From a virus (taxonomy: Duplodnaviria; Heunggongvirae; Uroviricota; Caudoviricetes), in the IMG/VR virus record IMGVR_UViG_3300031992_000020: a DNA stretch of 64,000 nucleotides. One strand, 5' to 3'. The notes under the pieces are model-generated. The model ran no database searches. It was not told the origin of the DNA and saw nothing but the letters and a program-made list of their open reading frames with translations. Made by a program: the position numbers and the translations under genes. Below, piece by piece: positions 645 to 61,061 of this stretch (within the stretch, counting starts at the first letter, position 1; every line of letters starts with the position of its first letter).

Positions 645-1111
645 AGTTTTACTCCCAATTTAATTCATTATTTGCGGATAAGTCGGCCGCATACCCTATA
701 CAAATAGCATCAGCTTCGTCTTGCGTGCAGTTCGCGCCAAATGTTCGTAGAACCCACTATTGAGCAATTTTCTTTTGAGCCTACCGTGTCTTCTCATTTC
801 CTTTTAAGAAATTGCATTTTGCACGCCACTCTGAAGGTGCAATAATTTCACATGGTATATGTAAATTTTGTGCAAGTTCAACTATTGCACCTTGAAGCCA
901 AGCTAATTTCTAAAATGTTGCAATATTATTTTGATTTTGAATATTTTCTATCACTAATTTATCTGGTGCATATTGATCCAATAATGACTCAATCCATAAA
1001 CAAATTTTATGAATCCTCACATGAATATCTGCATCATCTTGTTCATGTTTGCCATACTAAACCAATTTGCCATTTTCCCAGACTGAAAATCCACTGCACT
1101 ATGTTGCTTGA

Positions 1112-1720
1112 TCAAGTGCCAGTAGAACCAAATCCGCCAGTTCTTTCTCCGTTGGCAGCATCATCTGCAACAGTACCATATTGTAAGAACACACCTTGTC
1201 CTATGCAATCGCCTTTCTTGAGAACTACATCAAAAGGAAGAAGATTGATAATCTGGAAATAGATATGTCCTTCATTATCGGGATTATTATAATAATCTGC
1301 ATCAATAATCCCTACACCATTACCAAGAATTAGCCAATGTTTAAGCGGGAGGCTGGACCGCACACTTAGTTGTAGATACCAGTCATTTGGCATTTTTGCT
1401 TTTACTCCTGTTGGTACAAGAGTAATTTTATGATTATATTTCTTTACGAAGGTTGCAGCTGTTTCTAAGTCATATGGTAGACTCTTGATAAAATCATCAA
1501 AAGAACCATAGTAAGTAGAAAGATCTTTCGCAAGTTCATTCGCAAAGTCTGCTTCAATAGAAGAATAGTAACTTGGAATTACTGTGTCTTCTGCTACATA
1601 AAAATCATAACCAGCAGAACATTCTGTTTTACGAACTGGAAGAATAATATCTGGATCGTCTTGATACTTACTTATTTTTTCAAATTTTGCATCAATATTC
1701 ATATCGTACCTGCACACCAC
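1112..1720 (-). CDS. dut: dUTP diphosphatase (trimeric dUTPase family)
   Basis: GIIDADY and C-terminal GGFGSTG motifs typical of dUTPase. Confidence 0.6.
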   Translation of the reverse strand: MVCRYDMNIDAKFEKISKYQDDPDIILPVRKTECSAGYDFYVAEDTVIPSYYSSIEADFANELAKDLSTYYGSFDDFIKSLPYDLETAATFVKKYNHKITLVPTGVKAKMPNDWYLQLSVRSSLPLKHWLILGNGVGIIDADYYNNPDNEGHIYFQIINLLPFDVVLKKGDCIGQGVFLQYGTVADDAANGERTGGFGSTGT

Positions 1721-20531: not shown

Positions 20532-21515
20532 TTATTTAATACTGTAGCCATATTCTTTGGCTTTGTAAAAGTCTTGCCAATAATCTTCTCTCTCATTTAG
20601 CTTAGATTGATCACATTCCTCTATAACTTCGAATGTAAATTTTTCTAAACCTTCTTGATACATTGCAGGATATAATTTATTTTGTGTGCGAGGCTCCGCG
20701 TTTAACGCCCTCTTAATATGTTGCCGCCAGCGATCTGCAATATCAACTGCTTGTCCAACATAACACATTTGTGTTTCGATGTTTGTGATGCGGTAAATAC
20801 CAGTATGTCGTCCGTTGCCTATGACTCGACCCACGAGATCGGTATATGGCTTTTCATAGTAGACTTTCCAGATAACTTTTGCAATAGCTTCTCCGGCTTC
20901 TTGCGATATGCTTGGCACAATCTCTTCAAGTCTTCGTATGTCATTAAGTGTGTGTGGCCCCATTTGTAGAGAATGGAACTTAATGAAATTTTCTTCTTCT
21001 GCATGACGTTTTGCAACCTCAACTGCTGCGCTTGCGGCAGATTTTAATTCACTTAATTTTTTATCAAGTTCTTTCGCGGCATCCATTTTACGACGATTAG
21101 TGTCTTTAAATTGTTCCGCAAAATCTTCTTGCATTTGAATATATTCTTCTTGCCTTTTGTCGATCCAAACTTGACGTTCTGTCAGATATTTCTTTTTAAA
21201 TTCTTCTTCAGTTAATTCATATGACTATTTTAATTTTTCAACATTTTCAACTTGAGTGGCAATATCATCATTTAGTTCTTTCTTGCGTGTTGCCAATTCA
21301 TCAATTTTGAATCTATGCTCTACAATCTGGTTAGTTAATTCATTATCTTGTACAGTTAATTGTTCTAATTTTTCTTTATACTAATTAACTTCATACTAAG
21401 CTGTATTTATACTTGCTTGTAATCCATTATACTATTGAATATTTTTTTTGACTAAATAACCTGATATGATAGTAGCAATAATGCCAATGACAAGAAGAGC
21501 AATAATGATCCACAT
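20532..21515 (-). CDS. TM helix, coiled-coil and GIY-YIG nuclease domain protein; contains 4 in-frame TAG codons (predicted sense)
   Basis: RBS GGAGGACAAT then ATG at 21515; single open frame continues into track ORF 20532..21134 through TAGs at about 21432, 21396, 21381 and 21225; GIY-YIG motif YVGQ..R..H. Confidence 0.55.
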
Positions 21516-21535
21516 ATTGTCCTCCAGTCTAAAAT

Positions 21536-21566
21536 AGGGGATTGATAAAGCCTACCAATCCCCCAT
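21536..21566 (-). terminator. rho-independent terminator (GGGGATTG/CAATCCCC stem then T tract)
   Basis: lies downstream of the 21585..21860 gene. Confidence 0.5.
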
Positions 21567-28432: not shown

Positions 28433-29693
28433 CATGGATTTTCGCTGCAAGTTGAGCTACCTCGCTACGTTCAGATTTTTGAAGTTCAATAGATCCGAAC
28501 AGAGGATCACCTTTTAAGCTATGCAATAGTGAAGCAATACCACTGTTCTTTCGGAAAATATCAGAGTCTGTTTGTGATTCATCACCCAAAAACCAAACCT
28601 CACTATCCTTTTCTGCGCGAGATATAATTAATTTAACATTATCAGTTGTAAGATTCTCGGCTTCATCTACAAATATAATGCTATGTTGAAAATTACGTCC
28701 GCGCAAATACCCTAAATGTATCGGCTCAATTTCATCATTCTCTATTGCTTGGATAAGAGCTTCTGGACCTCCCAAGTGATCCGCCAGCGGCATTAACCAA
28801 GGCATTAGTTTATCATCTTGCTCACCCGGCAACGCGCCAAGTCTCTATGACCCGGCAACTTCAACGTTATTTCTTACATATACGATTTTATCAAAAGTGT
28901 GCCATTTGACATAATTCATTGCATGAACTAAAGCTAAAAATGTTTTACCAGAACCAAATTGTCCTCTTACTACTTTGACAGGAATCTTTCTGTTTTGTAG
29001 TAAGTCAAATAACATTTTCTATTGATCATTTAATGGTTTTACTTGACCAAAATAATCACTGTTTTGATTCTTGTATTTAATTACTTCATTTTTACTTCCA
29101 TCCCATTTAACTAAATCAACAATTTCGTCGTTTAACTTTAAAGCCGCATATTCATTAATCTCTAAGCCAATAGTATTGGTCTCAGGATGCTCATAATAAT
29201 TGGCTAATGCCTGTTCATCGGATCCAAAGTCAATTTCTTTGTATCCTTTCCAAAGTCCTTCTCTGTGCGCTGTATCTTTATAATAAATAGGATTTATAAC
29301 ATCTATAAATTTGCACGCAAGAAAATATTGAGAAGAATCCGATGTAATAAATTCAACCCTTTCCTTAATCTTGCGTGCAGTAATCACAGCTTCACAAATT
29401 AATATACTATCATTATTATCTTGCAAGTCTGGAGAATGTGTTAATAATTTGTTAATAACTCTCCAATTACTTTTTGGCTCTTGCCATAGATCCTAATGAT
29501 CCATTAAATAGCGAATTAAAACGCGTGCTTTATATTTGATTGCTTCATCCTTTTGAAAGGATGTTTTGATATTTTCTAATTCTGAAAAAACAATTGTACT
29601 AATATAATTTACATCTTCGGTATTTAACTTATAACCAGCTAATAAAGCACTTGTATCAAAGAACTTAACTGTTTGCTTCAATGCTTTCATCAC
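28422..29693 (-). CDS. PhoH2-like protein (N-terminal PIN domain plus PhoH ATPase) in one reading frame with 3 in-frame TAG codons
   Basis: track ORFs 29493..29693, 29019..29426 and 28422..28832, plus a start-less PhoH N-terminus with Walker A GQFGSGKT, are all in one frame joined by TAG at 29493-95, 29019-21 and 28845-47. Confidence 0.6.
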
Positions 29694-46229: not shown

Positions 46230-47259
46230 TCATATATACTTATTGTGTGCAGTTTGTATTTCTGTGTCATCTAATTTTGTATAAATTAATGTGGTATTTA
46301 TTTGTTTGTGTCCTAATAATCTTTGTACTTGCTCAATAGGCATGCCGTTATGTAAGGCTTGGGTGGCTGTGGTGTGCCGAAATACGTGTGGTGTAATTTT
46401 ATGGTTTGGATCTATGTTTGCGCGAAGGGCTAAATTTTTTACTAATTTTTGGATGGCGCGTGGAGTAGTTTGAGCTGATTTAGTTTTATGAGCTGGTGCA
46501 AATATATATTCACTATTTATTGTTCGTAATGCTAAATATTTACGTAGGCTAACTTCTGCTTCGGCATTTAAATATACGTTTCTTGAATAACCACCTTTAC
46601 CATGCTCTATAAACACGGATTTATTATTCCAATCAATATTTTTTAATTTTGCATTACACATTTCAGACACTCTGCATCCTGTGCTATATAAAAAATCTAT
46701 AATTGCTTTTTCACGGATATTTTTGCAAGCTTCTCGTAGATATTCTAATTCTAACGAAGATAATGGCTCTCGCGCGACAGCATCACTTTTAATTGGTTTT
46801 ATATTCTTTGCTGGATTTCTTGTGATTAAATTTTCTGATACGCACCATTCATAGAAAGAATTTATTACACGTCGCATTGTATCTAATGTTACATTTTTAA
46901 CTCCACGAGATTGCTTATAATTATATAAATAAACTCGAATATCATTAGTTGTTACGTTAGTAAATGGCTTTCCTATTGATGATAAAAAATTTCCTAATGT
47001 TAGTTTGTATAATGATAAAGTGCCAGGTGATTTTTCTTCGATAGCTTTTGATGCAATAAATAATTTTAAAACCTATGGGTATCCTTCTTGTAGAATAATT
47101 AATTCTAATTCTTTCTTTTCGATGCTATATTTTTGAGCAATTTCATCGAGATGATGTAAAATATCTTCTATTTCTCTAATATTTAAATTAGGCAATTTGT
47201 TTCTTAGTTCAATTAAAAATTCAGTTTTAAAGATTTCATAACTATCCATGTTTAAGCAC
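46230..47259 (-). CDS. tyrosine recombinase (Xer/Rci-like) with one in-frame TAG (47073-47075)
   Basis: C-terminal catalytic R..HxxR..Y; an N-terminal SAM-like core-binding domain is only present if read through the TAG linking track ORFs 47073..47276 and 46230..46877; RBS AAGGTGG. Confidence 0.65.
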
Positions 47260-47327
47260 CACCTTATTTTATACAAAGATTAAATGACGAAGTTCATCAT
47301 CTAATGTTTATATAAAATTACGTTATA

Positions 47328-50168: not shown

Positions 50169-50477
50169 TCAGCTTTTTTCTTTATCGGTACTTTTTCCTT
50201 TGCGAGGAACAGTTTCTTTTAAAAATTGCTTACGCAAATTTCGTGCTGAATTTTTATTTCTTGATTTAAATGTTGGCAATTGACTATCACAATTAGGGCA
50301 TATCAAACGTAAGTTGTCTTTTGTAGAATTAGCAGCATTTCCATCAATATGATCTAATACAAAATGTAATTCTTGATTATTCCATATATCAGGTATACCA
50401 CAAATAGCACATTTATGTTCTTGTTGATCTAAAATGTATTCACGAATAACGCCACGTATAGTTGTGTCAACAGACAT
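50169..50477 (-). CDS. HNH endonuclease
   Basis: CAICG..HHIDG..N..CPNCD motifs. Confidence 0.55.
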   Translation of the reverse strand: MSVDTTIRGVIREYILDQQEHKCAICGIPDIWNNQELHFVLDHIDGNAANSTKDNLRLICPNCDSQLPTFKSRNKNSARNLRKQFLKETVPRKGKSTDKEKS

Positions 50478-51186: not shown

Positions 51187-54057
51187 TCAGTCAAAGCAAT
51201 CTCCAACCTGATTAATCATAACCTCTACACCAAGAGGAGTATCATAATCAGTTATAATGTACATCGGAGTGCCGGGCAGCTTAGGTTGCGGCTGATCTGG
51301 CGGAATAATAGGTCTTTCATATGGACGATTTATAAATGTCATAACATTACCTTGTTGTGTCTGACTTTCCATATGATAGCCAAGCACAGTATATTCTCGC
51401 CATTCGTATTGTATTTCAGTACCATCGTCATTATATTGAGGTACTTCAACAGTAACAAACCAATCATTGTCCGCGCTCAACTTTACGCTCTTGATATGCA
51501 CACCATCTGCAAACAATTTTACATGTATAGCACTTGGCCGCAAAAGATCATAACCCTCATCATTCCATATCTTGCGAATACCTATCACCGTTGTAGGAAC
51601 GTCTTCTGGAATATCAATTATAGTCGTAGGTACAGGAGTTACTGATGGAATTGGATCCGGAGTAAGCGTTGGACGTGGTGTGCGCACAGGCTCCGGCGTT
51701 GGGCTAGGCGTAGCAGTTGGTGTAACGACTGGCTTGGGCGTCGGGGTGCTTGTTGGCGCAGGAGTAATTCTGGTATTTTCAAAATGAAGAGTGTAAATAT
51801 CCTTATCAAAAATACCATTCTCATTTGCTGGCACATGGATAACTGCAACATTTGCCGCGCGTTCTTCGCCAGGCGCGGGTGTTACAGTTGTCAAAGCTGA
51901 ATCATCTGAAATATAAATATTAGATATGAAATAATTATCATGTGAATCAATTTCAGTGATTGTATAATCGCCTGGGATAATCTTACCAAATCCTCTGTGA
52001 TTATCATAAATCACAAATTTATCTATTTCAGAATTGGCATTGAACTCTACTTTTGCTTCTACACCATCTGGGAAACTTGGTCCTGTGATAATAAATCTAA
52101 AATCAACAGGAACATTATCGTACTCTTTCAAATGTTTTTCAATTCTAAATCCACCAATAGGAGGAGTTGCTGTGGGCGCAGGTGTATATGTAGGGGTTGG
52201 CCGCACAGTTGGAGTAATTGTAGGAGTAGCCGTAGGCGTTGGGCTAGGAGTTACTGAAATAGTAGGAGTTGGTGTACTCGTAGGAGTCGGACTTGGAGTT
52301 ATTGTAGGTGTCACCGTAGGAGTAGGTGACGGAGTTATAGTTGGAGTAGGACTCGGTGTAACCGTAGGTGTAGGTGTTGGAGTTGGGGTTACAGTAGGAG
52401 TCGGACTTGGAGTAGGAGTAATTGTCGGTGTAGGACTTGGAGTTGCTGTTGGAGTAGGGCTAGGTGTTGGAGTTGGTGTAGGTGTTGGAGTTGGTGTAGG
52501 TGTAATTGTCGGAGTTGGACTTGGAGTTGGTGTAGGAGTAGGTGTTGGCGTTGCTGTTGGGGTAGGTGATGGAGTAGGAGTTACAGAATATTCAACTGCG
52601 GGTAATGGGAAATCTTGGATTTTATTATCTTGTGGAGTATATAAAGTCGCAGTTGTATTTGTCAAAAGTGGAATACCACCTTGTGATCCATTAAAATCAT
52701 ATGTGCCATATTCACCAGCAACAGTTTGTGGATTACTTAATTTAATGCTATAATGTAATTCCACAGAATCACAGAGCAATAGATTAGTATTAATAATCCA
52801 CTTAAATGAATCGTTTTCTTCTTCACCGTAATATATTAATGTAAATAAATCGCCAAAATGGAATGTGATATTATCACTAGTCGTAGCATTAATACGTTCG
52901 CCATTCCAAATTACATACATTCTACTTGCGTCTGGAATAAAATCCATATCATATTCATTACCGAGATTATCAATTCCAGAACCCATATAGTCCTTTACAT
53001 AGCTTCCAGTAGTAACATATGATATTTCTTTACCAATATTGCTTAATGAAAAGCTTCTGCCGCAATTCAAATATTGCATAAAAGATTGGGCATATTGGCT
53101 TGTTCTATAAGAGAAATCACCGCTATCAACATAAACTGCATAGCAATTATAACCATGCTGTTGCGCAGTTGCATAAGAAAGCATTGCATAATATAATGCT
53201 TTATCGGAAGACACAGCATGAGTAGATAGATTTCCTCTAATGTAACTGGTAGCACCATTATAGTAGTTACGAGGATCCCATCCCCACGTCTGTTCAAACA
53301 AATCTTGATCACGATTAATGGCTTGCGCCACTTCTACAAAATAATCATACCAACTTGCTGGTGCGGCGTAGGTACCATATTTGAATAAATATGTATCTGG
53401 TCCAGCGACTATATTACCATCATGCTCTTGGACTACGACAGTCTCTCCTGCTGTTTTAGTCCCACTTAAACCAAGTTGATTGTTCTTTTGATATACGTGA
53501 GTATCACCATCGCTAAGTATAATTAAATACTTATTAGATGCAGGTACTCCAGCATGATTGTCAAGCATATAAGTGCCTGTCAAGATACCTGAATTCAGAT
53601 TTGTGCCGCGATGGGTATATTGAGAAGGATGGTTCTTTGCTATCACAGTACCATCCAGTTGCCGATAAATTTTGGACTTACCATAAAAATATACTATTCC
53701 GACATTAATGTCATCTCTAGTATCAGCTGCAGACATATATTGCTGTAATAAATGCTCTGCCGCATTATCAATAGACAAGGAAGCATCTACTACAAATACA
53801 ATATCATATACATCAACACTAGTGGTAGGTATTTTCAACATGATGTTTGACTCATAGTTTTCATCCAAATTAGTAGCCGTTTTAGAAACGGCTACTTTAT
53901 TTAGATTCACAGATGAAATAGTAGGTACATATACCTCGCCACTATCTATTGTTATTTCTGGAGTATATTCATCGCTTTCTATCGCTGTCTCAGCAATACC
54001 AGCAAATGGCATCATTGCAAGTGCTATTGCTAACAATATTGCTAAAAATCTTTTCAT
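51187..54057 (-). CDS. secreted vWA-domain protein with a long Pro/Thr-rich repeat linker (adhesin or cell-wall-binding-like)
   Basis: signal peptide [20 protein letters not shown]; MIDAS VVDASLS; (TP/SP)n tract. Confidence 0.55.
51640..52570 (-). repeat. coding tandem repeat encoding (T/S)P-(T/A)P units
   Basis: ggtgtaggtgttggagttgg-type periodic repeats inside the 956-aa ORF. Confidence 0.7.
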
Positions 54058-54514: not shown

Positions 54515-54955
54515 TTACTTGTATAATTGATATTTCTTTGAAATTTTCCATGCGGTTTCATCGTCCAACGGGCGGAAACCTATACAAGTAAGAGTGCGGC
54601 CAGTGCCATCATCATCGACCATCTCTGGTTTCAATTCTGTAAGACACGCGTCCCATATGAGGAAAAAGTCTACACCTTCCCGCAACCCAAGCTCTTCGGC
54701 TATTGTTTTGACTTTAAGTAATTGTTTTAAGTTTTTAGCTTCGCAAACGGTTTTTGTAAATATGCCGTTAAACCAATCTTCATAAACATCTTTTTGGATT
54801 GTAAGCCCAACATAATAGTCATTGCTTAGACCCATTTTCTGCCCATTACCGCGAATTGCGCGTGATATAAACGCGATTGATGCATGGGCAACCTGCGCCG
54901 CAAGTTTTCCAGGTGACATTTGAAGATCTTTGCGAGCTATAATAAGTTGACGCAT
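54515..54955 (-). CDS. PTH2-family peptidyl-tRNA hydrolase
   Basis: GKLAAQVAHAS motif typical of Pth2; RBS AAGGAG. Confidence 0.5.
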   Translation of the reverse strand: MRQLIIARKDLQMSPGKLAAQVAHASIAFISRAIRGNGQKMGLSNDYYVGLTIQKDVYEDWFNGIFTKTVCEAKNLKQLLKVKTIAEELGLREGVDFFLIWDACLTELKPEMVDDDGTGRTLTCIGFRPLDDETAWKISKKYQLYK

Positions 54956-55021: not shown

Positions 55022-55070
55022 AATAGCAGTCCCTGTTGGGATCGAACCAACACATACGGAGTCAATTAAG
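55022..55070 (-). pseudogene. tRNA-Gln 3-prime fragment (anticodon-loop remnant to acceptor 3-prime strand), no CCA
   Basis: TTGACTCC..GTTGGTTCGATCCCAAC AGGGACT resembles the 3-prime two-thirds of the adjacent tRNA-Gln; no 5-prime partner. Confidence 0.35.
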
Positions 55071-55144
55071 CTGGGGTGGTTGGATTCGAACCAACGATGC
55101 AGGAGTCAAAGTCCTGTGCCTTCGACCAACTTGGCGACACCCCA
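55071..55144 (-). tRNA. tRNA-Gln(TTG)
   Basis: acceptor TGGGGTG/CACCCCA, loop CTTTGAC. Confidence 0.8.
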
Positions 55145-55570
55145 TTATTTTAGAAACTCATCAATTGTGATTCCTTCTTCTTTTTCAAGGAAATGAAATA
55201 CACGATGGTAATTAGCACATAAGCATACACATTTATCAATTTCAGATAAGGCACGCTCTAAACTATATTTAGCTGCGATCATTCGTGCAACTGTGGTATC
55301 TTTTTGACTTGGATCTAAATGATGAAAATCTAAAGCTGTTGGATATTCATTATATCCACATTTAGCACAAGATAAATCCTATTTAATTTCTCCTATTGCT
55401 TGTCGTTTTTCTTTATATTTTTCTTTCATATAATTACTATGACAAGTTTTACATTCAGAACGCCTAGTTCCTTTTGCTTTATCACGCCAAGCAAAATCAT
55501 CTATAGATTTTTCTATACCACATTTTGTACATATTTTAGTTTCCATTAAATCAACTCCTTGCGCTACCAT
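55145..55570 (-). CDS. HNH homing endonuclease with one in-frame TAG (55379-55381)
   Basis: an N-terminal zinc finger and C-terminal HNH motifs (CAKCG..HHLD..N..H) lie in one frame separated only by TAG; TAA stop abuts tRNA-Gln. Confidence 0.6.
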
Positions 55571-55717
55571 TACGCTAAGGGACTATAAATGCGGATGAGG
55601 ATTTGCACCTCACATGATACGCCCCATTAATTCCCGTTCCCAATGCGTATCTATCCATAGCACAGCTACTGAAGAGCACCTTCAACTCTAGCGTCTACCT
55701 ATTCCGCCACCGCAAAG
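55568..55717 (-). ncRNA. 150-nt tRNA-like structured RNA (class-II-like 5-prime acceptor/D arm, internal hairpins, non-canonical T loop TGCAAAT)
   Basis: 5-prime GCGGTGG..GCGGAATAGGTAGACGC; 3-prime TGAGGTGCAAATCCTCA TCCGCAT; acceptor pairs at only 5 of 7 positions. Confidence 0.3.
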
Positions 55718-57508: not shown

Positions 57509-58152
57509 TTAATTTATAAATATCCATTTAAATCCATAGGCGGTACCTTCTCTTTTCACACTACGAGAGATAGTAACAGATATGCTTTTAATATTACTTT
57601 TTGATAAATTATTATCTATTATATATCTCGCAGCATCTTTTAATGATGTAAAACTTATAGCTTGATTAGTATTATTATTTATTCCTAAAACCTGTTTTCC
57701 ATATTTTCGTTTATTAGTTTGTTGAAATGTTTTAGGAACAATATTATAATTAGTTAAAGCATGTTTAACTGTTTTAATATCAACTTTACATGCTTTAGCT
57801 GTGTCTGTTAAAGATTGTAATTTAAGATATGTATTTTTAATTAAATTATAATCTTTATATTGTGTTCCATCTCCACCATAAGTTGCATTATAACCATATT
57901 TAAAGCTTCGATAAAACTCAATCCAATATTTTTCACGATCTGAGGCTTCTTCAACTTTACATTCTTCTAATTGTGATATAACAAAATTTTCTATACCGTA
58001 TTTATTAAAAGCTGCATATAATGGACGATGACATTCTTCAGATTTTTTGCTATCCAATATATGCCTTTTCCATCGTTCCTCAATAGTTGCGACTGTTTTA
58101 CCGATATAAACTTTATGGTTTAGTTTATTCTCTATTTTATAGATGTATGCCA
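57509..58152 (-). CDS. GIY-YIG homing endonuclease
   Basis: YIYKIENKLNHKVYIGKT motif; RBS GGAG; immediately downstream of the suppressor tRNA. Confidence 0.6.
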
Positions 58153-58179
58153 TAACTAAATAGCTCCATTCTTTATATT

Positions 58180-58269
58180 CGGCCCTCCAGGGATTCGAAC
58201 CCTGACTACCTCCTTCAGAGGGATATAACGGTTTTAGAGACCGGTGTTCTACCATTGAACTAGAGGGCT
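58180..58269 (-). tRNA. suppressor tRNA, anticodon CTA (reads UAG); class II with long variable arm and G73, so a Ser-type scaffold is predicted
   Basis: loop CTCTAAA flanked by stem CGGT/ACCG; D stem GTTC/GAAC; variable arm about 22 nt (CCCTC..GAGGG); T arm CAGGGTTCGAATCCCTG; acceptor AGCCCTC/GAGGGCC (A1-C72 mismatch). Confidence 0.75.
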
Positions 58270-58379
58270 ATAATTCTCTTCTTTATTTATTTCAAAAATA
58301 TTATAGCATATTTTTTTTACCTTGTCCAGTCACTTTATTTAGGATTGCGCGCATATGACCAATTTGGATTAAAAAATTG

Positions 58380-58575
58380 CTGGGCTGGGTTTTGATCGGG
58401 TGCACGGGCATCTGCGGCCGGACCAGATTATGCCATTAAAATGCCCGGCCTGATCAGTCCCTCGGCCGGGCTTTGTGGCCCCTCGTGTTGCATTACGCAC
58501 GGTGACCATGGTTCTATTTATATTGCGCCTTCCCTTTCCGGATTAGTGCGAGACTGACACCAGTCGGCGCCGGGG
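58380..58575 (-). ncRNA. GC-rich (about 60%) highly structured non-coding island next to tRNA-Met
   Basis: multiple nested inverted repeats (GGGCAT..ATGCCC, GGCCGG..CCGGCC); no credible ORF; contrasts with the AT-rich genome. Confidence 0.3.
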
Positions 58576-58578
58576 TAA

Positions 58579-58655
58579 TGGTGCCTGCGGGTGGATTCGA
58601 ACCACCGACCTACGGGGTATGAGTCCGTTGCTCTGACCACCTGAGCTACACAGGC
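58579..58655 (-). tRNA. tRNA-Met(CAT)
   Basis: acceptor GCCTGTG/CGCAGGC, loop CTCATAC, CCA encoded. Confidence 0.75.
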
Positions 58656-58698
58656 ATGAAGGGCAGACACATCCGCCCGACAAAATCAATCGCCGCAA

Positions 58699-59238
58699 TT
58701 ACGGCCACTCACCAAGAGGCATACCAAGATTAGCACGCTCAACATTGGTATTGAAGAACACGCCTTGAACGGCAGGACCAGTGAGAAGTTCATCAGCAAT
58801 AGTCTCATAAAGAGTGCTGATCACGCCATGACAATCATTTAGATTATCAGCTGGGAACTGTACCACACAGTTGTTGAATACGACATAAGTCGTTCCAATC
58901 CACTGATAACCTTCCTCAGCTGGGCAAACAGAATAAGCATATGCGGGATTCTTCTCAAAAGCGGTATTAAACAATTCAACCTTACTCTTGAAAGCACGAT
59001 TGGAAGGAGTGCCGTCAACCATAACTTTGAGCTTTACATTACCAAAACAAATCTCTTCAGGAAGGATTTGCTGGAGTGCGGCGACCTTATCACCATTATT
59101 GCAAGCAAATACAATAGAAGGAGTGGAGCCACCAAAGTCACAGTTGCACGCGATCTGCGGATCGCCATCAAACAGTGCCTCGAACTTGCGAATCACAATA
59201 GTCCAAGGCGGAAGGATCTTGAGTCTTGCGTCAGCCAT
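58699..59238 (-). CDS. hypothetical protein
   Basis: ORF track; RBS AAAGGAGAAAC. Confidence 0.4.
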   Translation of the reverse strand: MADARLKILPPWTIVIRKFEALFDGDPQIACNCDFGGSTPSIVFACNNGDKVAALQQILPEEICFGNVKLKVMVDGTPSNRAFKSKVELFNTAFEKNPAYAYSVCPAEEGYQWIGTTYVVFNNCVVQFPADNLNDCHGVISTLYETIADELLTGPAVQGVFFNTNVERANLGMPLGEWP

Positions 59239-59467: not shown

Positions 59468-59554
59468 TGGGTGGAAGGACAGGACTTGAACCTGCACGCT
59501 CTTTCGAGCACGTGGGCCACAACCACGCGTGTCTACCATTTCACCACCGACCAC
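59468..59554 (-). tRNA. atypical class-II tRNA-like gene with anticodon GTG, C73 and CCA; acceptor has two central mismatches
   Basis: anticodon arm CGTGG TTGTGGC CCACG; variable hairpin GCTC GAAA GAGC; T arm GCAGGTTCAAGTCCTGT. Confidence 0.35.
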
Positions 59555-59559
59555 ATGCC

Positions 59560-59641
59560 TAGACCGCTTAATTGCATATGGGAATCGAACCCATGTTCTC
59601 GGTTTGTTATACCAATGTCTTATCCACTTGACAAATGCGAA
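59560..59641 (-). tRNA. tRNA-like, anticodon loop ATAACAA (AAC, Val-type, A34); 5-prime acceptor strand appears interrupted
   Basis: D arm GTC AAGTGGATAA GAC; T arm ATGGGTTCGATTCCCAT; acceptor 3-prime strand ATGCAAT only pairs if a 13-nt insertion in the 5-prime strand is ignored. Confidence 0.3.
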
Positions 59642-59780: not shown

Positions 59781-59864
59781 AAATAATCAAGACTCTATTA
59801 AGGCTACTTTTTGTTTACAACACAAAATGATGCTTTAATAATTTGCTGTGTGAGTCTTAATCAG

Positions 59865-59947
59865 TGCGGAATGAGGGACTCGAACCCTCACGTCATTAAG
59901 ACACATGATCCTTAGTCATGCCTGTCTACCAGTTCCAGCAATTCCGC
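59865..59947 (-). tRNA. tRNA-Leu(AAG), class II, A34
   Basis: acceptor GCGGAAT/ATTCCGC; anticodon arm CATGA CTAAGGA TCATG; long variable arm. Confidence 0.65.
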
Positions 59948-60291: not shown

Positions 60292-60367
60292 TGGTACTCC
60301 ACAAGGGATTCGAACCCTCACTGTATGCGTTCTAAGCGCATCGCCTCTGCCGTTGGGCTAATGGAGC
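60292..60367 (-). tRNA. class-I tRNA with anticodon TAG (Leu CUA codon), A73, CCA encoded
   Basis: anticodon arm ATGCG CTTAGAA CGCAT; short variable arm is unusual for Leu. Confidence 0.55.
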
Positions 60368-60973: not shown

Positions 60974-61061
60974 TGGCGATCGGAGAAGGATTCGAACCTT
61001 CGGACCCTCGCGGGTCAGTGGTTTTCTAGACCACCGCCATAGTCCACTCGGCCATCCGACC
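60974..61061 (-). tRNA. tRNA-Ser(AGA), A34
   Basis: acceptor GGTCGGA/TCCGATC; anticodon arm GTGGT CTAGAAA ACCAC; long variable arm; CCA encoded. Confidence 0.65.

What the first reader, a model, noticed from the sequence alone, without database searches (positions are those of the whole stretch)
58180..58269. Phage-encoded amber suppressor tRNA (anticodon CUA) on a class-II, Ser-like scaffold
The loop is CTCTAAA, with U33 and A37 in place and the anticodon CTA, which pairs with UAG. The D stem is GTTC/GAAC, the variable arm is about 22 nt, the T arm is canonical and the discriminator is G73. A long variable arm with G73 is the SerRS identity set, and SerRS does not read the anticodon, so TAG is predicted to be read as serine here rather than the usual glutamine. 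A supF-like Tyr origin would instead need A73. The gene sits inside the tRNA array beside a GIY-YIG endonuclease.
Basis: partly seen in the sequence, partly recalled or inferred. Interest (0 to 1): 0.9.

Follow-up and report, generated by a model that had tools for sequence, protein, structure and literature searches.

The report
Amber suppressor tRNA with decoy glutamine arm
This is a real phage tRNA that reads the stop codon TAG, most likely as glutamine rather than serine, and its long extra arm looks like a second anticodon loop carrying the normal glutamine anticodon, which may be how the phage gets the host enzyme to charge it.

Summary
The tRNA is real. It lies at 58180..58269 on the minus strand and has anticodon CUA, G73 and a 23-nt extra region (ARAGORN; Rfam 55.4 bits).

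The serine reading is not supported.
- TAG never ends a long ORF in this window. It sits in frame in at least 9 genes.
- Against relatives, TAG aligns with Gln codons at 8 of 14 informative sites, and 7 of those are CAA. It never aligns with Ser.
- Two PhoH TAG columns are Gln in 113 of 113 homologues.
- The acceptor has A1·C72, G2:C71, G10 and G73, which is a Gln/Trp-type set. All nine phage Ser tRNAs compared have G1:C72.
- The extra arm has 4 unpaired nt on its 3' side. Ser tRNAs have 1.

The new result concerns the extra arm. In 51 related phage CUA tRNAs it carries a 7-nt loop Y-U-(C/U)UG-A-N, which is a glutamine anticodon loop (CUCUGAA here).

Two other phage families do the same thing. 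Long-arm tRNA(UAU) carries GAU (Ile). Long-arm tRNA(UCA) carries U-CCA-A (Trp).

I infer a two-headed tRNA. The ribosome reads CUA and the Gln-charging enzyme reads the decoy CUG loop. This mechanism is inferred, not shown. I found no description of it in the papers searched.

The parts
58180..58269 (-). Amber-decoding tRNA gene, 90 nt from position 1 to G73. No CCA is encoded.
   Evidence: ARAGORN. Rfam RF00005 at 55.4 bits. The minimum-free-energy fold is a cloverleaf. Family covariation supports it.
58228..58244 (-). Decoding anticodon arm CCGGU CUCUAAA ACCGU. The anticodon CUA is at 58235..58237. It has U33 and A37, and C27·U43 is a mismatch.
   Evidence: Read from the sequence. Rfam, whose tRNA model matches end to end, and ARAGORN place CUA as the anticodon.
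58205..58227 (-). Extra 23-nt region UAUAUCCCUCUGAAGGAGGUAGU. I read it as a second, degenerate anticodon arm, UAUCC CUCUGAA GGAGG, followed by UAGU, which has the length of a normal class-I variable loop.
   Evidence: In 51 distinct relatives the 7-nt loop register holds. The closing pairs 31':39' and 30':40' are each paired in 50 of 51 members and they covary. The helix is supported in the 15-member alignment. Caveat: in isolation a triloop hairpin is favoured, -5.0 against -1.0 kcal/mol.
58214..58220 (-). Loop CUCUGAA of the extra arm. It reads U33'-C34' U35' G36'-A37', a glutamine anticodon loop. CUG is at 58216..58218.
   Evidence: Across the family: 34' is C in 42 and U in 9, 35' is U in 51 of 51, 36' is G in 51 of 51, 37' is A in 49 of 51, and 33' is U in 43 of 51. 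YUGA occurs in 49 of 59 long-arm CUA tRNAs against 18 of 237 class-II controls.
58181..58187 (-). 3' strand of the acceptor stem, GAGGGCC. It pairs with 58263..58269 (AGCCCUC). Pair 1:72 is A·C, 2:71 is G:C and 3:70 is C:G. The discriminator G73 is at 58180.
   Evidence: Read from the sequence.
58300..58328 (-). Sigma-70-like promoter, TGGACA, 17-nt spacer, TG-TATAAT. It matches 11 of 12 positions and has an extended -10. It lies about 30 nt upstream of the tRNA 5' end.
   Evidence: Consensus scan. This is a consensus match only; function is not shown.
57509..58153 (-). GIY-YIG homing-endonuclease-like gene immediately downstream of the tRNA.
   Evidence: Pfam PF01541, E = 1.2e-11. The same gene is called on the ENA contig L028.
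28422..29690 (-). PIN/PhoH-like gene with three in-frame TAG codons at 29493..29495, 29019..29021 and 28845..28847. It is an example of the codons this tRNA must read.
   Evidence: The TAG at 29019..29021 falls in a column that is Gln in 113 of 113 homologues.
649..1161 (-). RuvC-like gene with five in-frame TAG codons.
   Evidence: One column is Q in 107 and K in 12 homologues. Another is Q in 57 and E in 33. No column is dominated by Ser. The source pipeline translated this gene with TAG as Q.

Best explanation
This is a functional phage tRNA that decodes UAG as glutamine, the phage 'code 15'.

It has two anticodon-like arms. The first arm (CCGGU CUCUAAA ACCGU) sits directly after the D arm and is the one the ribosome uses. 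It pairs with UAG. Its 7-nt loop CUCUGAA displays U33-CUG-A37, the normal glutamine anticodon loop. It is followed by a 4-nt spacer of normal variable-loop length and then the T arm.

The acceptor end carries the rest of the bacterial glutamine identity set: an unpaired or weak 1:72 (A1·C72), G2:C71, G10 and G73.

I infer that the host's glutamine-charging enzyme reads the decoy CUG loop in place of the real anticodon. That enzyme would be GlnRS, or a non-discriminating GluRS followed by GatCAB. The real anticodon lacks the determinant G36. The tRNA would therefore be charged efficiently with Gln while still reading UAG.

Shown:
- The gene and its fold.
- TAG is equivalent to Gln in this genome.
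- The YUG-A loop is conserved across the family.
- Parallel families carry GAU (Ile) and CCA (Trp) loops in their extra arms.

Inferred:
- The two arms can sit side by side on the enzyme.

The confidence of 0.6 is for the whole statement including the decoy mechanism. I put the narrower claim, a Gln-meaning UAG decoder that is not Ser, at about 0.85.
For: 1. It is a real tRNA under selection.

2. TAG is a sense codon meaning Gln.
- The long minus-strand ORFs end in TAA (25), TGA (15) and TAG (2). Both TAG cases continue in frame.
- There are in-frame TAGs in at least 9 genes.
- TAG aligns with Gln codons at 8 of 14 informative sites, 7 of them CAA, and never with Ser or Trp.
- Two PhoH TAG columns are invariant Gln, 113 of 113 each, including NCBI-sourced homologues at about 44 and 65% identity.

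3. It is the only CUA tRNA seen in about 75 kb of this genome. That covers the window, the L029 extension and L036.

4. The acceptor and core signature, in 51 distinct family members:
- 1:72 is U:A in 22, A·C in 11, U·U in 6, A:U in 6, G·U in 3, U·C in 2 and C:G in 1. It is never G:C.
- G2 is present in 50 of 51, G10 in 50 of 51 and G73 in 40 of 51.
- In the same phages tRNA-Gln has U1:A72 with G73 (5 of 5) and tRNA-Ser has G1:C72 (9 of 9).

5. The extra-arm loop has Y32' U33' (C/U)34' U35' G36' A37'. U35' and G36' are invariant in 51 of 51, and two closing pairs covary. The stems and the rest of the body diverge: mean identity over positions 1-26 is 0.63 and the minimum is 0.35. Nine members have UUG instead of CUG, and both are Gln anticodons. 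Two members, L106 and L069, have full 5-6 bp second arms.

6. The motif is specific to each family.
- Long-arm CUA tRNAs: YUGA in 49 of 59.
- Long-arm UAU tRNAs: GAU in 65 of 70, in a 7-nt loop on a covarying 4-bp stem.
- Long-arm UCA tRNAs that are not Sec-like: U-CCA-A in 13 of 18.
- Class-II Ser/Leu/Tyr controls: 18, 48 and 0 of 237 for the three motifs.
- Each extra arm therefore shows the standard anticodon of the amino acid expected for the unusual decoding anticodon.

7. Established knowledge, from review PMC9976931.
- GlnRS identity lies in the anticodon (U35, G36) and the acceptor stem including the discriminator base, with the 10-25 pair as a further binding site.
- The amber suppressor forms of tRNA-Trp and tRNA-fMet are charged with Gln.
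- An amber tRNA-Ser switched to Gln charging when two acceptor base pairs were substituted, which established the importance of pairs 1-72 and 3-70.
Against: - There is no experimental evidence on charging, expression or decoding.
- The geometry is unproven. GlnRS is a monomer that spans from the acceptor end to the anticodon. Whether a 3-5 bp hairpin on flexible linkers can reach its anticodon pocket is only argued, not modelled.
- In the window copy the isolated extra region prefers a 5-bp hairpin with a GAA triloop (-5.0 kcal/mol). That fold buries part of the 7-nt loop, whose own form is -1.0 kcal/mol.
- Pair 3:70 is C:G, not the G:C of E. coli tRNA-Gln.
- The host is unknown, so it is also unknown whether it has GlnRS.
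- The family scans required a CUCUAAA loop and a canonical T loop, and they stopped at 120 loci. Members are related by descent, so counts are not independent events.
- The Ile-family loop has A33' and U37', which is a less faithful anticodon-loop mimic.
- Another CUA tRNA could lie in the unseen part of the genome. Related phAss-1-like phages carry a class-I Sup-CTA next to the long-arm one.
- Some database homologues were translated with TAG as Q. This inflates Q counts for close relatives.
Confidence: 0.6

Rival explanations
1. It is a Gln-inserting amber suppressor charged in the classical su+7 or supE manner. GlnRS would recognise U35, C34, the open 1:72 pair, G2:C71, G10 and G73 on the main body. 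The extra arm would have some other role. It could block TrpRS or other enzymes, bind a modification enzyme or a phage factor, stabilise the fold, or be a retained relic of an anticodon-arm duplication.
For: - TAG means Gln.
- The acceptor signature is Gln-like.
- The D arm and anticodon arm most resemble tRNA-Trp among 111 non-CUA phage tRNAs. The D arm is 94% identical to L019 tRNA-Trp.
- The review states that the amber suppressor form of tRNA-Trp is charged with Gln.
- Class-I Sup-CTA tRNAs without any extra arm exist in related phages and share a U1·C72 mismatch with G73.
Against: - It does not explain why U35' and G36' are invariant, why A37' is present in 49 of 51, and why Y34' varies only between the two Gln anticodons while the stems covary.
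- It does not explain why the UAU and UCA long-arm families carry GAU and CCA.
Confidence: 0.22
2. The long arm plus G73 make it a SerRS substrate, so TAG is read as serine.
For: - The extra region is 23 nt long and the discriminator is G73.
- SerRS ignores the anticodon and relies mainly on the variable arm (PMC9976931).
- Genuine Ser-type CUA tRNAs exist in other phage contigs.
Against: - TAG columns are Gln and never Ser-dominated.
- 1:72 is A·C, whereas all phage tRNA-Ser compared have G1:C72.
- Substituting two acceptor base pairs, which implicated pairs 1-72 and 3-70, switched an amber tRNA-Ser to Gln.
- The arm has a median of 4 unpaired nt on its 3' side and 3 on its 5' side across the family. 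Ser tRNAs have a median of 1 on each side.
- The D arm is class-I type, with a 4-bp stem and a 7-nt loop.
- The arm's loop sequence is conserved, which SerRS recognition would not require.
Confidence: 0.04
3. It is a dual-decoding or bistable tRNA. Either arm could stack under the D stem, so the same molecule would read UAG through the CUA arm and CAG through the CUG arm. Alternatively it is really a tRNA-Gln(CUG) carrying an inserted hairpin.
For: - The second arm is followed by a 3-5 nt spacer of normal variable-loop size.
- Some members have perfect 5-6 bp second arms. L106 has CACGG CUCUGAC CCGUG, and L069 and L379 are similar.
Against: - In most members, including this one, the second stem has only 2-3 secure base pairs. 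Pairs 28':42' and 27':43' are paired in fewer than half of members.
- The genome needs a UAG decoder.
- The phage already carries a normal tRNA-Gln(UUG) at 55070..55144.
Confidence: 0.06
4. It is a non-functional or decaying tRNA gene, given the 1:72 and 27:43 mismatches and the absence of CCA.
For: A1·C72 and C27·U43 are mismatches, no CCA is encoded, and the fold z-score is only -1.59.
Against: - The same mismatches recur across many diverged relatives. A·C at 1:72 occurs in 11 of 51, and C·U at 27:43 in all 15 close relatives.
- Compensatory changes are seen in all the other helices except the anticodon stem, whose sequence was fixed by the search pattern.
- 10 of the 26 tRNAs in this array lack an encoded CCA.
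- A strong promoter-like site lies directly upstream.
- The genome depends on TAG decoding.
Confidence: 0.03

Closest known systems
Suppressor tRNA(CUA) of TAG-recoded ('code 15') phages: crAss-like, Lak, phAss-1
   Same: It is phage-encoded, has anticodon CUA, and sits in a genome where TAG is used as Gln. The closest GenBank match is the 88-nt 'tRNA-Sup-CTA' of phage phAss-1, OQ749652.
   Different: The papers I could search treat these tRNAs only as 'Sup-CTA', with Gln assumed (PMC10607447, bioRxiv 10.1101/2021.08.26.457843). None describes the long extra arm or its Gln anticodon-like loop.
E. coli su+7 (tRNA-Trp with CUA) and supE (tRNA-Gln with CUA), the classical Gln-inserting amber suppressors
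   Same: - The anticodon arm CCGGU CUCUAAA ACCG is essentially that of the tRNA-Trp-derived suppressor (from my own knowledge of the E. coli sequence).
- G73 is shared, and the first pair is weak, as in those suppressors.
- GlnRS charges CUA-bearing tRNA-Trp and tRNA-fMet with Gln (PMC9976931).
   Different: Those are 76-nt class-I tRNAs with a 5-nt variable loop. This one carries a 23-nt second arm and a true mismatch at 1:72.
Class-II tRNA-Ser, the supD-type tRNA-Ser(CUA) and allo-tRNAs (PMC5389517)
   Same: A long extra arm and G73. For those tRNAs identity is independent of the anticodon.
   Different: - Ser tRNAs have G1:C72, a 3-bp D stem with a large D loop, and an arm with about 1 unpaired nt on each side. 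Their arm loop sequence is not conserved.
- Allo-tRNAs have 8/4 or 9/3 acceptor/T configurations. This one is 7/5, as shown by the encoded CCA directly after G73 in 26 of 51 relatives.
Nematode nev-tRNAs (PMC3333845)
   Same: They are tRNAs whose long extra arm, not the anticodon, is thought to decide the amino acid.
   Different: In nev-tRNAs the arm recruits LeuRS and causes a codon to be read as a different amino acid. Here the arm appears to display the cognate anticodon, so that an anticodon-reading enzyme still charges the cognate amino acid.
tRNA-Pyl (the ARAGORN label) and tRNA-Sec
   Same: tRNA-Pyl has anticodon CUA. tRNA-Sec has a long extra arm.
   Different: - It lacks the tRNA-Pyl hallmarks (from my own knowledge): a 3-nt variable loop, a 6-bp anticodon stem, a small D loop without GG, and an atypical T loop.
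- It lacks the tRNA-Sec hallmarks: an 8/5 acceptor/T arrangement, a 6-bp D stem and anticodon UCA.

Membership tests
tRNA (Rfam RF00005) | Cloverleaf scoring above the curated gathering threshold | tested here: met
   55.4 bits against a threshold of 29, model positions 1-71. ARAGORN agrees.
Amber suppressor / UAG-decoding tRNA | Anticodon CUA in a 7-nt loop with U33 and a purine at 37 | tested here: met
   The loop is CUCUAAA at 58233..58239.
Code-15 phage (TAG = Gln) | TAG is not used as a terminator and occurs in frame in genes | tested here: met
   Stops of the long ORFs are TAA 25, TGA 15 and TAG 2, and both TAG cases continue in frame. In-frame TAGs are seen.
Code-15 phage (TAG = Gln) | TAG positions align with Gln in homologues | tested here: met
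   Two columns are Gln in 113 of 113 homologues. TAG aligns with CAA or CAG at 8 of 14 informative sites and with Ser at none.
Bacterial tRNA-Ser identity | Long variable arm | tested here: inconclusive
   The length is sufficient at 23 nt. The geometry differs: 4 unpaired nt 3' of the hairpin against 1 in 60 of 81 phage tRNA-Ser, and 6 unpaired nt on the 5' side against 1.
Bacterial tRNA-Ser identity | G73 | tested here: met
   G at 58180 on the minus strand. This is not specific: Gln, Trp, Asn and Asp tRNAs of these phages also have G73.
Bacterial tRNA-Ser identity | G1:C72 (with G2:C71) in the acceptor stem | tested here: not met
   The window tRNA has A1·C72. 9 of 9 distinct phage tRNA-Ser have G1:C72. 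0 of 51 family members have G:C at 1:72.
Bacterial tRNA-Ser identity | Class-II core: 3-bp D stem with an enlarged D loop | tested here: not met
   The D stem is 4 bp (GUUC/GAAC) and the D loop is 7 nt. The D arm is 94% identical to a phage tRNA-Trp.
Bacterial tRNA-Ser identity | Aminoacylation by SerRS | not testable with these tools
   This needs an in-vitro charging assay.
E. coli-type tRNA-Gln identity (GlnRS) | Weak or open 1:72 pair and G73 | tested here: met
   A1·C72 and G73 in the window tRNA. In the family, 50 of 51 are weak or mismatched and G73 is present in 40 of 51. Phage tRNA-Gln has U1:A72 with G73 in 5 of 5.
E. coli-type tRNA-Gln identity (GlnRS) | G2:C71 and G3:C70 | tested here: inconclusive
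   G2:C71 is met. 3:70 is C:G in the window tRNA. In the family it is C:G in 33 and G:C in 18.
E. coli-type tRNA-Gln identity (GlnRS) | G10 | tested here: met
   G10 is present. It is present in 50 of 51 family members.
E. coli-type tRNA-Gln identity (GlnRS) | Anticodon Y34 U35 G36 with A37 | tested here: inconclusive
   The decoding anticodon has C34, U35 and A37 but A36 in place of G36. The complete C34' U35' G36' A37' set is present in the extra-arm loop at 58214..58220.
E. coli-type tRNA-Gln identity (GlnRS) | Aminoacylation with Gln, directly or through Glu-tRNA and GatCAB | not testable with these tools
   This needs charging assays or proteomics.
tRNA-Pyl | 3-nt variable loop, 6-bp anticodon stem, small D loop lacking GG | tested here: not met
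   The extra region is 23 nt, the anticodon stem has at most 5 bp, and the D loop is AAUGGUA with GG. The family definition comes from my own knowledge.
tRNA-Sec and allo-tRNA | 8/5, 8/4 or 9/3 acceptor/T configuration | tested here: not met
   It is 7/5. Relatives encode CCA directly after G73. Sec-like UCA tRNAs found in the control scan look different.

The most novel reading that the evidence does not exclude
Phages have evolved 'two-headed' tRNAs that separate identity from decoding. An auxiliary arm displays the standard anticodon loop of the amino acid: YUG for Gln, CCA for Trp and GAU for Ile. An anticodon-reading class-I synthetase reads that loop. The arm in the canonical position carries the unusual decoding anticodon: CUA for UAG, UCA for UGA and UAU for AUA. 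The window tRNA would be a member of the Gln/UAG branch of this design. It would be a natural solution to the problem that limits codon reassignment by GlnRS, TrpRS and IleRS.
Probability: 0.5. Interest if true: 0.95.

Novelty: new variant of a known kind. Interest (0 to 1): 0.85.

Why it matters
If the decoy-arm reading is right, it explains how phages with reassigned stop codons get suppressor tRNAs charged by host enzymes that normally insist on the cognate anticodon. The authors of the phage-recoding survey left this question open (bioRxiv 10.1101/2021.08.26.457843).

It would be a natural case of uncoupling tRNA identity from decoding. It suggests a portable design for genetic-code expansion: graft a cognate anticodon hairpin into the variable region, so that anticodon-dependent synthetases charge tRNAs carrying any anticodon.

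There is also a practical gain. These genes are currently labelled tRNA-Pyl, 'Sup' or class-II/Ser-like. Recognising the family lets annotators assign TAG as Gln (and, for the parallel families, TGA as Trp and AUA as Ile) from the tRNA alone.

Even if the mechanism is wrong, the conserved family-specific loops in three tRNA families are an unexplained regularity worth testing.

Tried and rejected
- Megablast of the locus against GenBank phages found nothing. Distant blastn gave only phAss-1 and one phage tRNA-Trp.
- The genome-contig scan for the 20-mer found one phage-like tRNA-array contig, binned into a MAG, and one chance hit inside a coding region. The family looks phage-restricted.
- tRNA-Pyl, tRNA-Sec and allo-tRNA (8/4) readings were rejected on structure (see the membership test).
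- My first idea was a pure tRNA-Trp (su+7-like) origin with the arm acting as a block against TrpRS. I kept it only as a rival. The body is Trp/Gln-like, but the extra arm's Gln loop, and a phage tRNA-Gln(CUG) with a similar body in L034, make a tRNA-Gln ancestry at least as likely.
- PDB alignments of the RuvC-like and integrase proteins said nothing useful about the TAG positions.
- I could not obtain the rest of the genome. The ENA assembly splits it into a 106-kb contig and a 14.5-kb contig, and only 10-kb flanks can be fetched. A second CUA tRNA elsewhere is therefore not excluded.
- A permissive Rfam scan of 58100..58700 found nothing beyond the two tRNAs. The GC-rich spacer at 58335..58578 has no unusual fold, z = -0.04.
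- Six literature searches found no description of anticodon-like extra arms. The library does not index most subscription-journal papers.
Full report
**1. The observation**

ARAGORN finds 26 tRNA genes between 50.6 and 64 kb of the window, all on the minus strand. One of them has anticodon CTA, at 58179..58270. It is labelled 'tRNA-Pyl' only because of the anticodon. Rfam's tRNA model matches 58180..58269(-) at 55.4 bits against a gathering score of 29. The minimum-free-energy fold is a cloverleaf with an extra hairpin.

Read from the sequence the tRNA is:
AGCCCUC UA GUUC AAUGGUA GAAC A CCGGU CUCUAAA ACCGU [UAUAUCCCUCUGAAGGAGGUAGU] CAGGG UUCGAAU CCCUG GAGGGCC G.

A GIY-YIG gene at 57509..58153 follows 26 nt downstream. 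A strong sigma-70-like promoter match (TGGACA, 17 nt, TG-TATAAT) lies about 30 nt upstream.

**2. Context**

The window is the replication and nucleotide-metabolism module of a large phage. It encodes NrdD, Pol III alpha, RecJ, DnaB, GyrA, GyrB and helicases. The same phage occurs in an ENA rumen-type assembly as a 106-kb contig plus a 14.5-kb tRNA-array contig.

**3. What TAG means in this genome**

Among 42 long minus-strand ORFs, 25 end in TAA, 15 in TGA and 2 in TAG. Both TAG cases continue in frame. Reading TAG as sense joins fragments into whole genes. These include a PIN/PhoH-like protein (3 TAG), a tyrosine recombinase (1), a RuvC-like protein (5), GIY-YIG and HNH endonucleases, and others. 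Late genes just outside the window also carry in-frame TAGs.

The codon-level comparison uses relatives at 62-88% protein identity (L002/L003 and L019), restricted to real genes.
- TAG aligns with a Gln codon at 8 sites. Seven of these are CAA, which is two mutational steps from TAG, so selection rather than mutation explains the equivalence.
- TAG aligns with V once, T twice, and H, E and Y once each.
- TAG never aligns with Ser or Trp.

In an alignment with 113 full-length PhoH homologues, down to 41% identity:
- The window TAG at 29019..29021 is Gln in 113 of 113.
- A second column, TAG in L002 and CAA in the window, is also Gln in 113 of 113.
- No TAG column is dominated by Ser.

The RuvC columns give the same picture: one is Q in 107 and K in 12, another is Q in 57 and E in 33.

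One caveat applies. At least one database protein, P0121, is this phage's own gene translated with TAG as Q. For close relatives I therefore rely on the codon-level data, and otherwise on distant or NCBI-sourced homologues.

An internal repeat reads WLCxCDCGN and then WLCQCDCGN.

Conclusion: TAG is a glutamine codon here, as in other 'code 15' phages (PMC10607447; bioRxiv 10.1101/2021.08.26.457843). This CUA tRNA is the only one in about 75 kb of the genome that I could see.

**4. Is the scaffold Ser-like?**

It is not, on four counts.
- The 1:72 pair. In the tRNAs of these phages, tRNA-Ser is G1:C72 with G73 (9 of 9), tRNA-Gln is U1:A72 with G73 (5 of 5), and tRNA-Trp is A1:U72 with G73 (2 of 2). 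The long-arm CUA tRNAs always have a weak or mismatched 1:72.
- The D arm. It has a 4-bp stem and a 7-nt loop and is closest to tRNA-Trp, at 94% identity. Ser tRNAs rank low.
- The arm geometry. Real class-II tRNAs in these loci follow the known spacing rule. The number of unpaired nt 3' of the arm is 1 for Ser (60 of 81), 2 for Leu (50 of 78) and 3 for Tyr (19 of 25). The CUA family has a median of 4, and a median of 3 on the 5' side.
- Published identity work. The review PMC9976931 records three relevant points. E. coli SerRS recognises the tertiary shape of tRNA-Ser. Substituting two acceptor base pairs switched an amber tRNA-Ser from Ser to Gln charging, which established the importance of pairs 1-72 and 3-70. 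CUA-bearing tRNA-Trp and tRNA-fMet are charged with Gln.

Genuine Ser-type CUA tRNAs (L147, L146, L139, L039) and Leu/Tyr-type ones with A73 (L074, L102) exist in other viral contigs. They look like ordinary class-II tRNAs.

**5. The family**

An exact 20-mer from the anticodon arm finds 24 IMG/VR contigs. It finds essentially nothing in 185,579 species genomes, apart from one phage-like tRNA-array contig. Fifteen distinct close relatives support every helix, including the extra hairpin. Across them 93.9% of cells pair, 14 pairs show compensatory changes, and 0 of 500 shuffles reach the observed values.

A relaxed scan (CUCUAAA loop, a 24-36 nt gap, then a T loop) hit its 120-locus limit and yielded 59 distinct long-arm CUA tRNAs. 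Removing the 8 that are class-II-type or aberrant leaves 51. Their features are:
- 1:72 is U:A in 22, A·C in 11, U·U in 6, A:U in 6, G·U in 3, U·C in 2 and C:G in 1.
- Position 73 is G in 40, A in 9 and U in 2.
- G2 is present in 50 of 51 and G10 in 50 of 51.
- CCA is encoded in 26.

**6. The extra arm is a glutamine anticodon-loop mimic**

I aligned the extra arms on a 7-nt loop register.

| Position | Residues (of 51) |
|---|---|
| 32' | Y 49 |
| 33' | U 43 |
| 34' | C 42, U 9 |
| 35' | U 51 |
| 36' | G 51 |
| 37' | A 49, C 2 |
| 38' | A 34, G 11, C 5, U 1 |

The closing pairs 31':39' and 30':40' are each paired in 50 of 51 members, and they covary (CG, GC and UA). Pairing decays further down the stem. 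After a nominal 5-nt 3' strand there are 3-5 nt before the T stem, which is the length of a class-I variable loop.

The window copy reads UA | UAUCC CUCUGAA GGAGG | UAGU. Some members have complete second arms. L106 has CACGG CUCUGAC CCGUG on a UGGGGUG acceptor, and L069 has a 6-bp stem. Nine members have UUG instead of CUG. Both are Gln anticodons.

YUGA occurs in 49 of 59 long-arm CUA tRNAs. It occurs in 0 of the 6 genuine class-II CUA tRNAs and in 18 of 237 Ser/Leu/Tyr controls. The rest of the molecule is diverged: mean identity over positions 1-26 is 0.63 and the minimum is 0.35.

**7. Two independent parallels**

The same relaxed scan with the anticodon loop changed gave two more families.

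Long-arm tRNA(UAU) has 70 distinct members.
- 65 carry GAU in the extra arm.
- In 64 of these, GAU sits at the centre of a 7-nt loop on a covarying 4-bp stem. The four pairs are paired in 62, 62, 62 and 55 of 64 members.

Long-arm tRNA(UCA) has 24 distinct members.
- Six are tRNA-Sec-like and lack the motif.
- Of the other 18, 13 carry the loop N-U-CCA-A-A on a covarying stem.
- L379, for example, has first arm UCGGU CUUCAAA ACCGU and second arm GGGGU CUCCAAA ACCUC, on a tRNA-Trp-type acceptor.

The motif table is close to diagonal.

| Family | n | YUGA | GAU | UCCAA |
|---|---|---|---|---|
| Long-arm CUA | 59 | 49 | 11 | 0 |
| Long-arm UAU | 70 | 21 | 65 | 0 |
| Long-arm UCA | 24 | 1 | 1 | 13 |
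| Class-II Ser/Leu/Tyr controls | 237 | 18 | 48 | 0 |

In each family the extra arm shows the standard anticodon of the amino acid expected for the unusual decoding anticodon. UAG read as Gln goes with YUG, UGA read as Trp goes with CCA, and AUA read as Ile goes with GAU. GlnRS (or GluRS), TrpRS and IleRS are all class-I enzymes that read the anticodon.

**8. Mechanism proposed**

The ribosome uses the CUA arm. It has a canonical junction with the D stem, the better stem, and Rfam and ARAGORN place CUA as the anticodon. The Gln-charging enzyme is offered the acceptor-end determinants together with a decoy loop that carries U35, G36 and A37. G36 is the determinant the real anticodon lacks.

Both arms leave the core at the same junction. 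The decoy has 2-6 nt linkers, so it could lie alongside the anticodon stem and reach a similar distance from the core. That step is an argument, not a result.

Caveats:
- There are no experiments.
- The host, and whether it has GlnRS, is unknown.
- The window copy prefers a triloop hairpin in isolation.
- 3:70 is C:G.
- The Ile mimic has A33' and U37'.
- The scans were capped and were conditioned on particular loop sequences.
- The sequences are related by descent.
- A class-I Sup-CTA accompanies the long-arm tRNA in phAss-1-like phages and could exist in the unseen part of this genome.

**9. Comparison and novelty**

Phage Sup-CTA tRNAs and TAG read as Gln are known. Gln charging of CUA tRNAs with an open first pair is classical. 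What I did not find described in six literature searches is an extra arm that mimics the cognate anticodon loop.

I therefore class the window tRNA as a new variant of a known kind, and I rate the general 'identity arm' principle as the most novel reading.

**10. Verdict**

- 'Amber suppressor' is supported.
- 'Ser-like scaffold, TAG read as Ser' is not supported.
- The most likely reading is a Gln-inserting UAG decoder whose extra arm is a glutamine anticodon-loop decoy.

Noticed in passing
Other phage contigs, e.g. L067, L200, L233 (long-arm tRNA-UAU) and L379, L343, L354 (long-arm tRNA-UCA): Two further phage tRNA families have a long extra arm whose 7-nt loop carries the standard anticodon of the expected amino acid. 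GAU (Ile) occurs in 65 of 70 long-arm tRNA(UAU). U-CCA-A (Trp) occurs in 13 of 18 non-Sec long-arm tRNA(UCA).
   Followed up: partly
L147, L146, L139, L039 (Ser-type) and L074, L102 (A73, Leu/Tyr-type): Genuine class-II scaffolds with anticodon CUA exist in other viral contigs. Some phages may therefore read TAG as Ser or as Leu/Tyr.
   Followed up: no
window 59468..59553 (-): An 86-nt 'tRNA-His(GUG)' has a long extra hairpin (GCUC GAAA GAGC) and a poorly paired acceptor stem. It has the lowest Rfam score in the array, 39.1 bits.
   Followed up: no
window 60292..60367 (-): A 76-nt class-I tRNA carries anticodon UAG, which reads a Leu codon, but has no long variable arm. Its body resembles the neighbouring Arg tRNAs, so its identity is unclear.
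   Followed up: no
window 59570..59641, 59864..59947, 60974..61061 (-): Several tRNAs have A34 anticodons that are unusual for bacteria: Val-AAC, Leu-AAG and Ser-AGA.
   Followed up: no
window 54515..54955 (-): A PTH2-type peptidyl-tRNA hydrolase gene (PF01981, E = 2e-21) sits inside the tRNA array.
   Followed up: no
window 50169..50477, 55145..55609, 57509..58153, 20532..21566 (-): HNH and GIY-YIG homing-endonuclease-like genes are scattered through and beyond the tRNA array. Two of them contain in-frame TAG codons themselves, 1 in 55145..55609 and 5 in 20532..21566.
   Followed up: partly
window 46230..47279 (-): A tyrosine recombinase (XerC/D-like, PDB hits at E = 1e-28) has one in-frame TAG in its N-terminal part. 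It lies next to a low-GC stretch at 46-48 kb, where the ENA assembly of the same phage breaks.
   Followed up: partly
window 51187..54057 (-): A 956-aa secreted protein has long Pro-Thr repeats and a Cna_B domain. It looks like a Gram-positive surface protein, sits between tRNA genes, and hints at a Firmicute host.
   Followed up: no
L001 6085..6156; L005 1320..1394; L022 435..512: In phAss-1-like phages a class-I Sup-CTA tRNA lies directly next to the long-arm one. It has a tRNA-Gln-like acceptor (UGGGG...), a U1·C72 mismatch and G73.
   Followed up: partly
P0121 / L036 10001..10513: The protein database holds products translated with TAG as Q. P0121 is this phage's RuvC-like gene and does not translate to the stored protein under the standard code. 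Q counts at TAG columns can therefore be inflated for close relatives.
   Followed up: yes
L068 (91-nt tRNA, anticodon CCA): A tRNA with a class-II-like body (Leu/Ser-type D arm and a long arm) carries the Trp anticodon CCA.
   Followed up: no
window 58335..58578 (-): A GC-rich 244-nt spacer lies between tRNA-Met and the suppressor's promoter. It has no Rfam match and no unusual fold, z = -0.04.
   Followed up: yes
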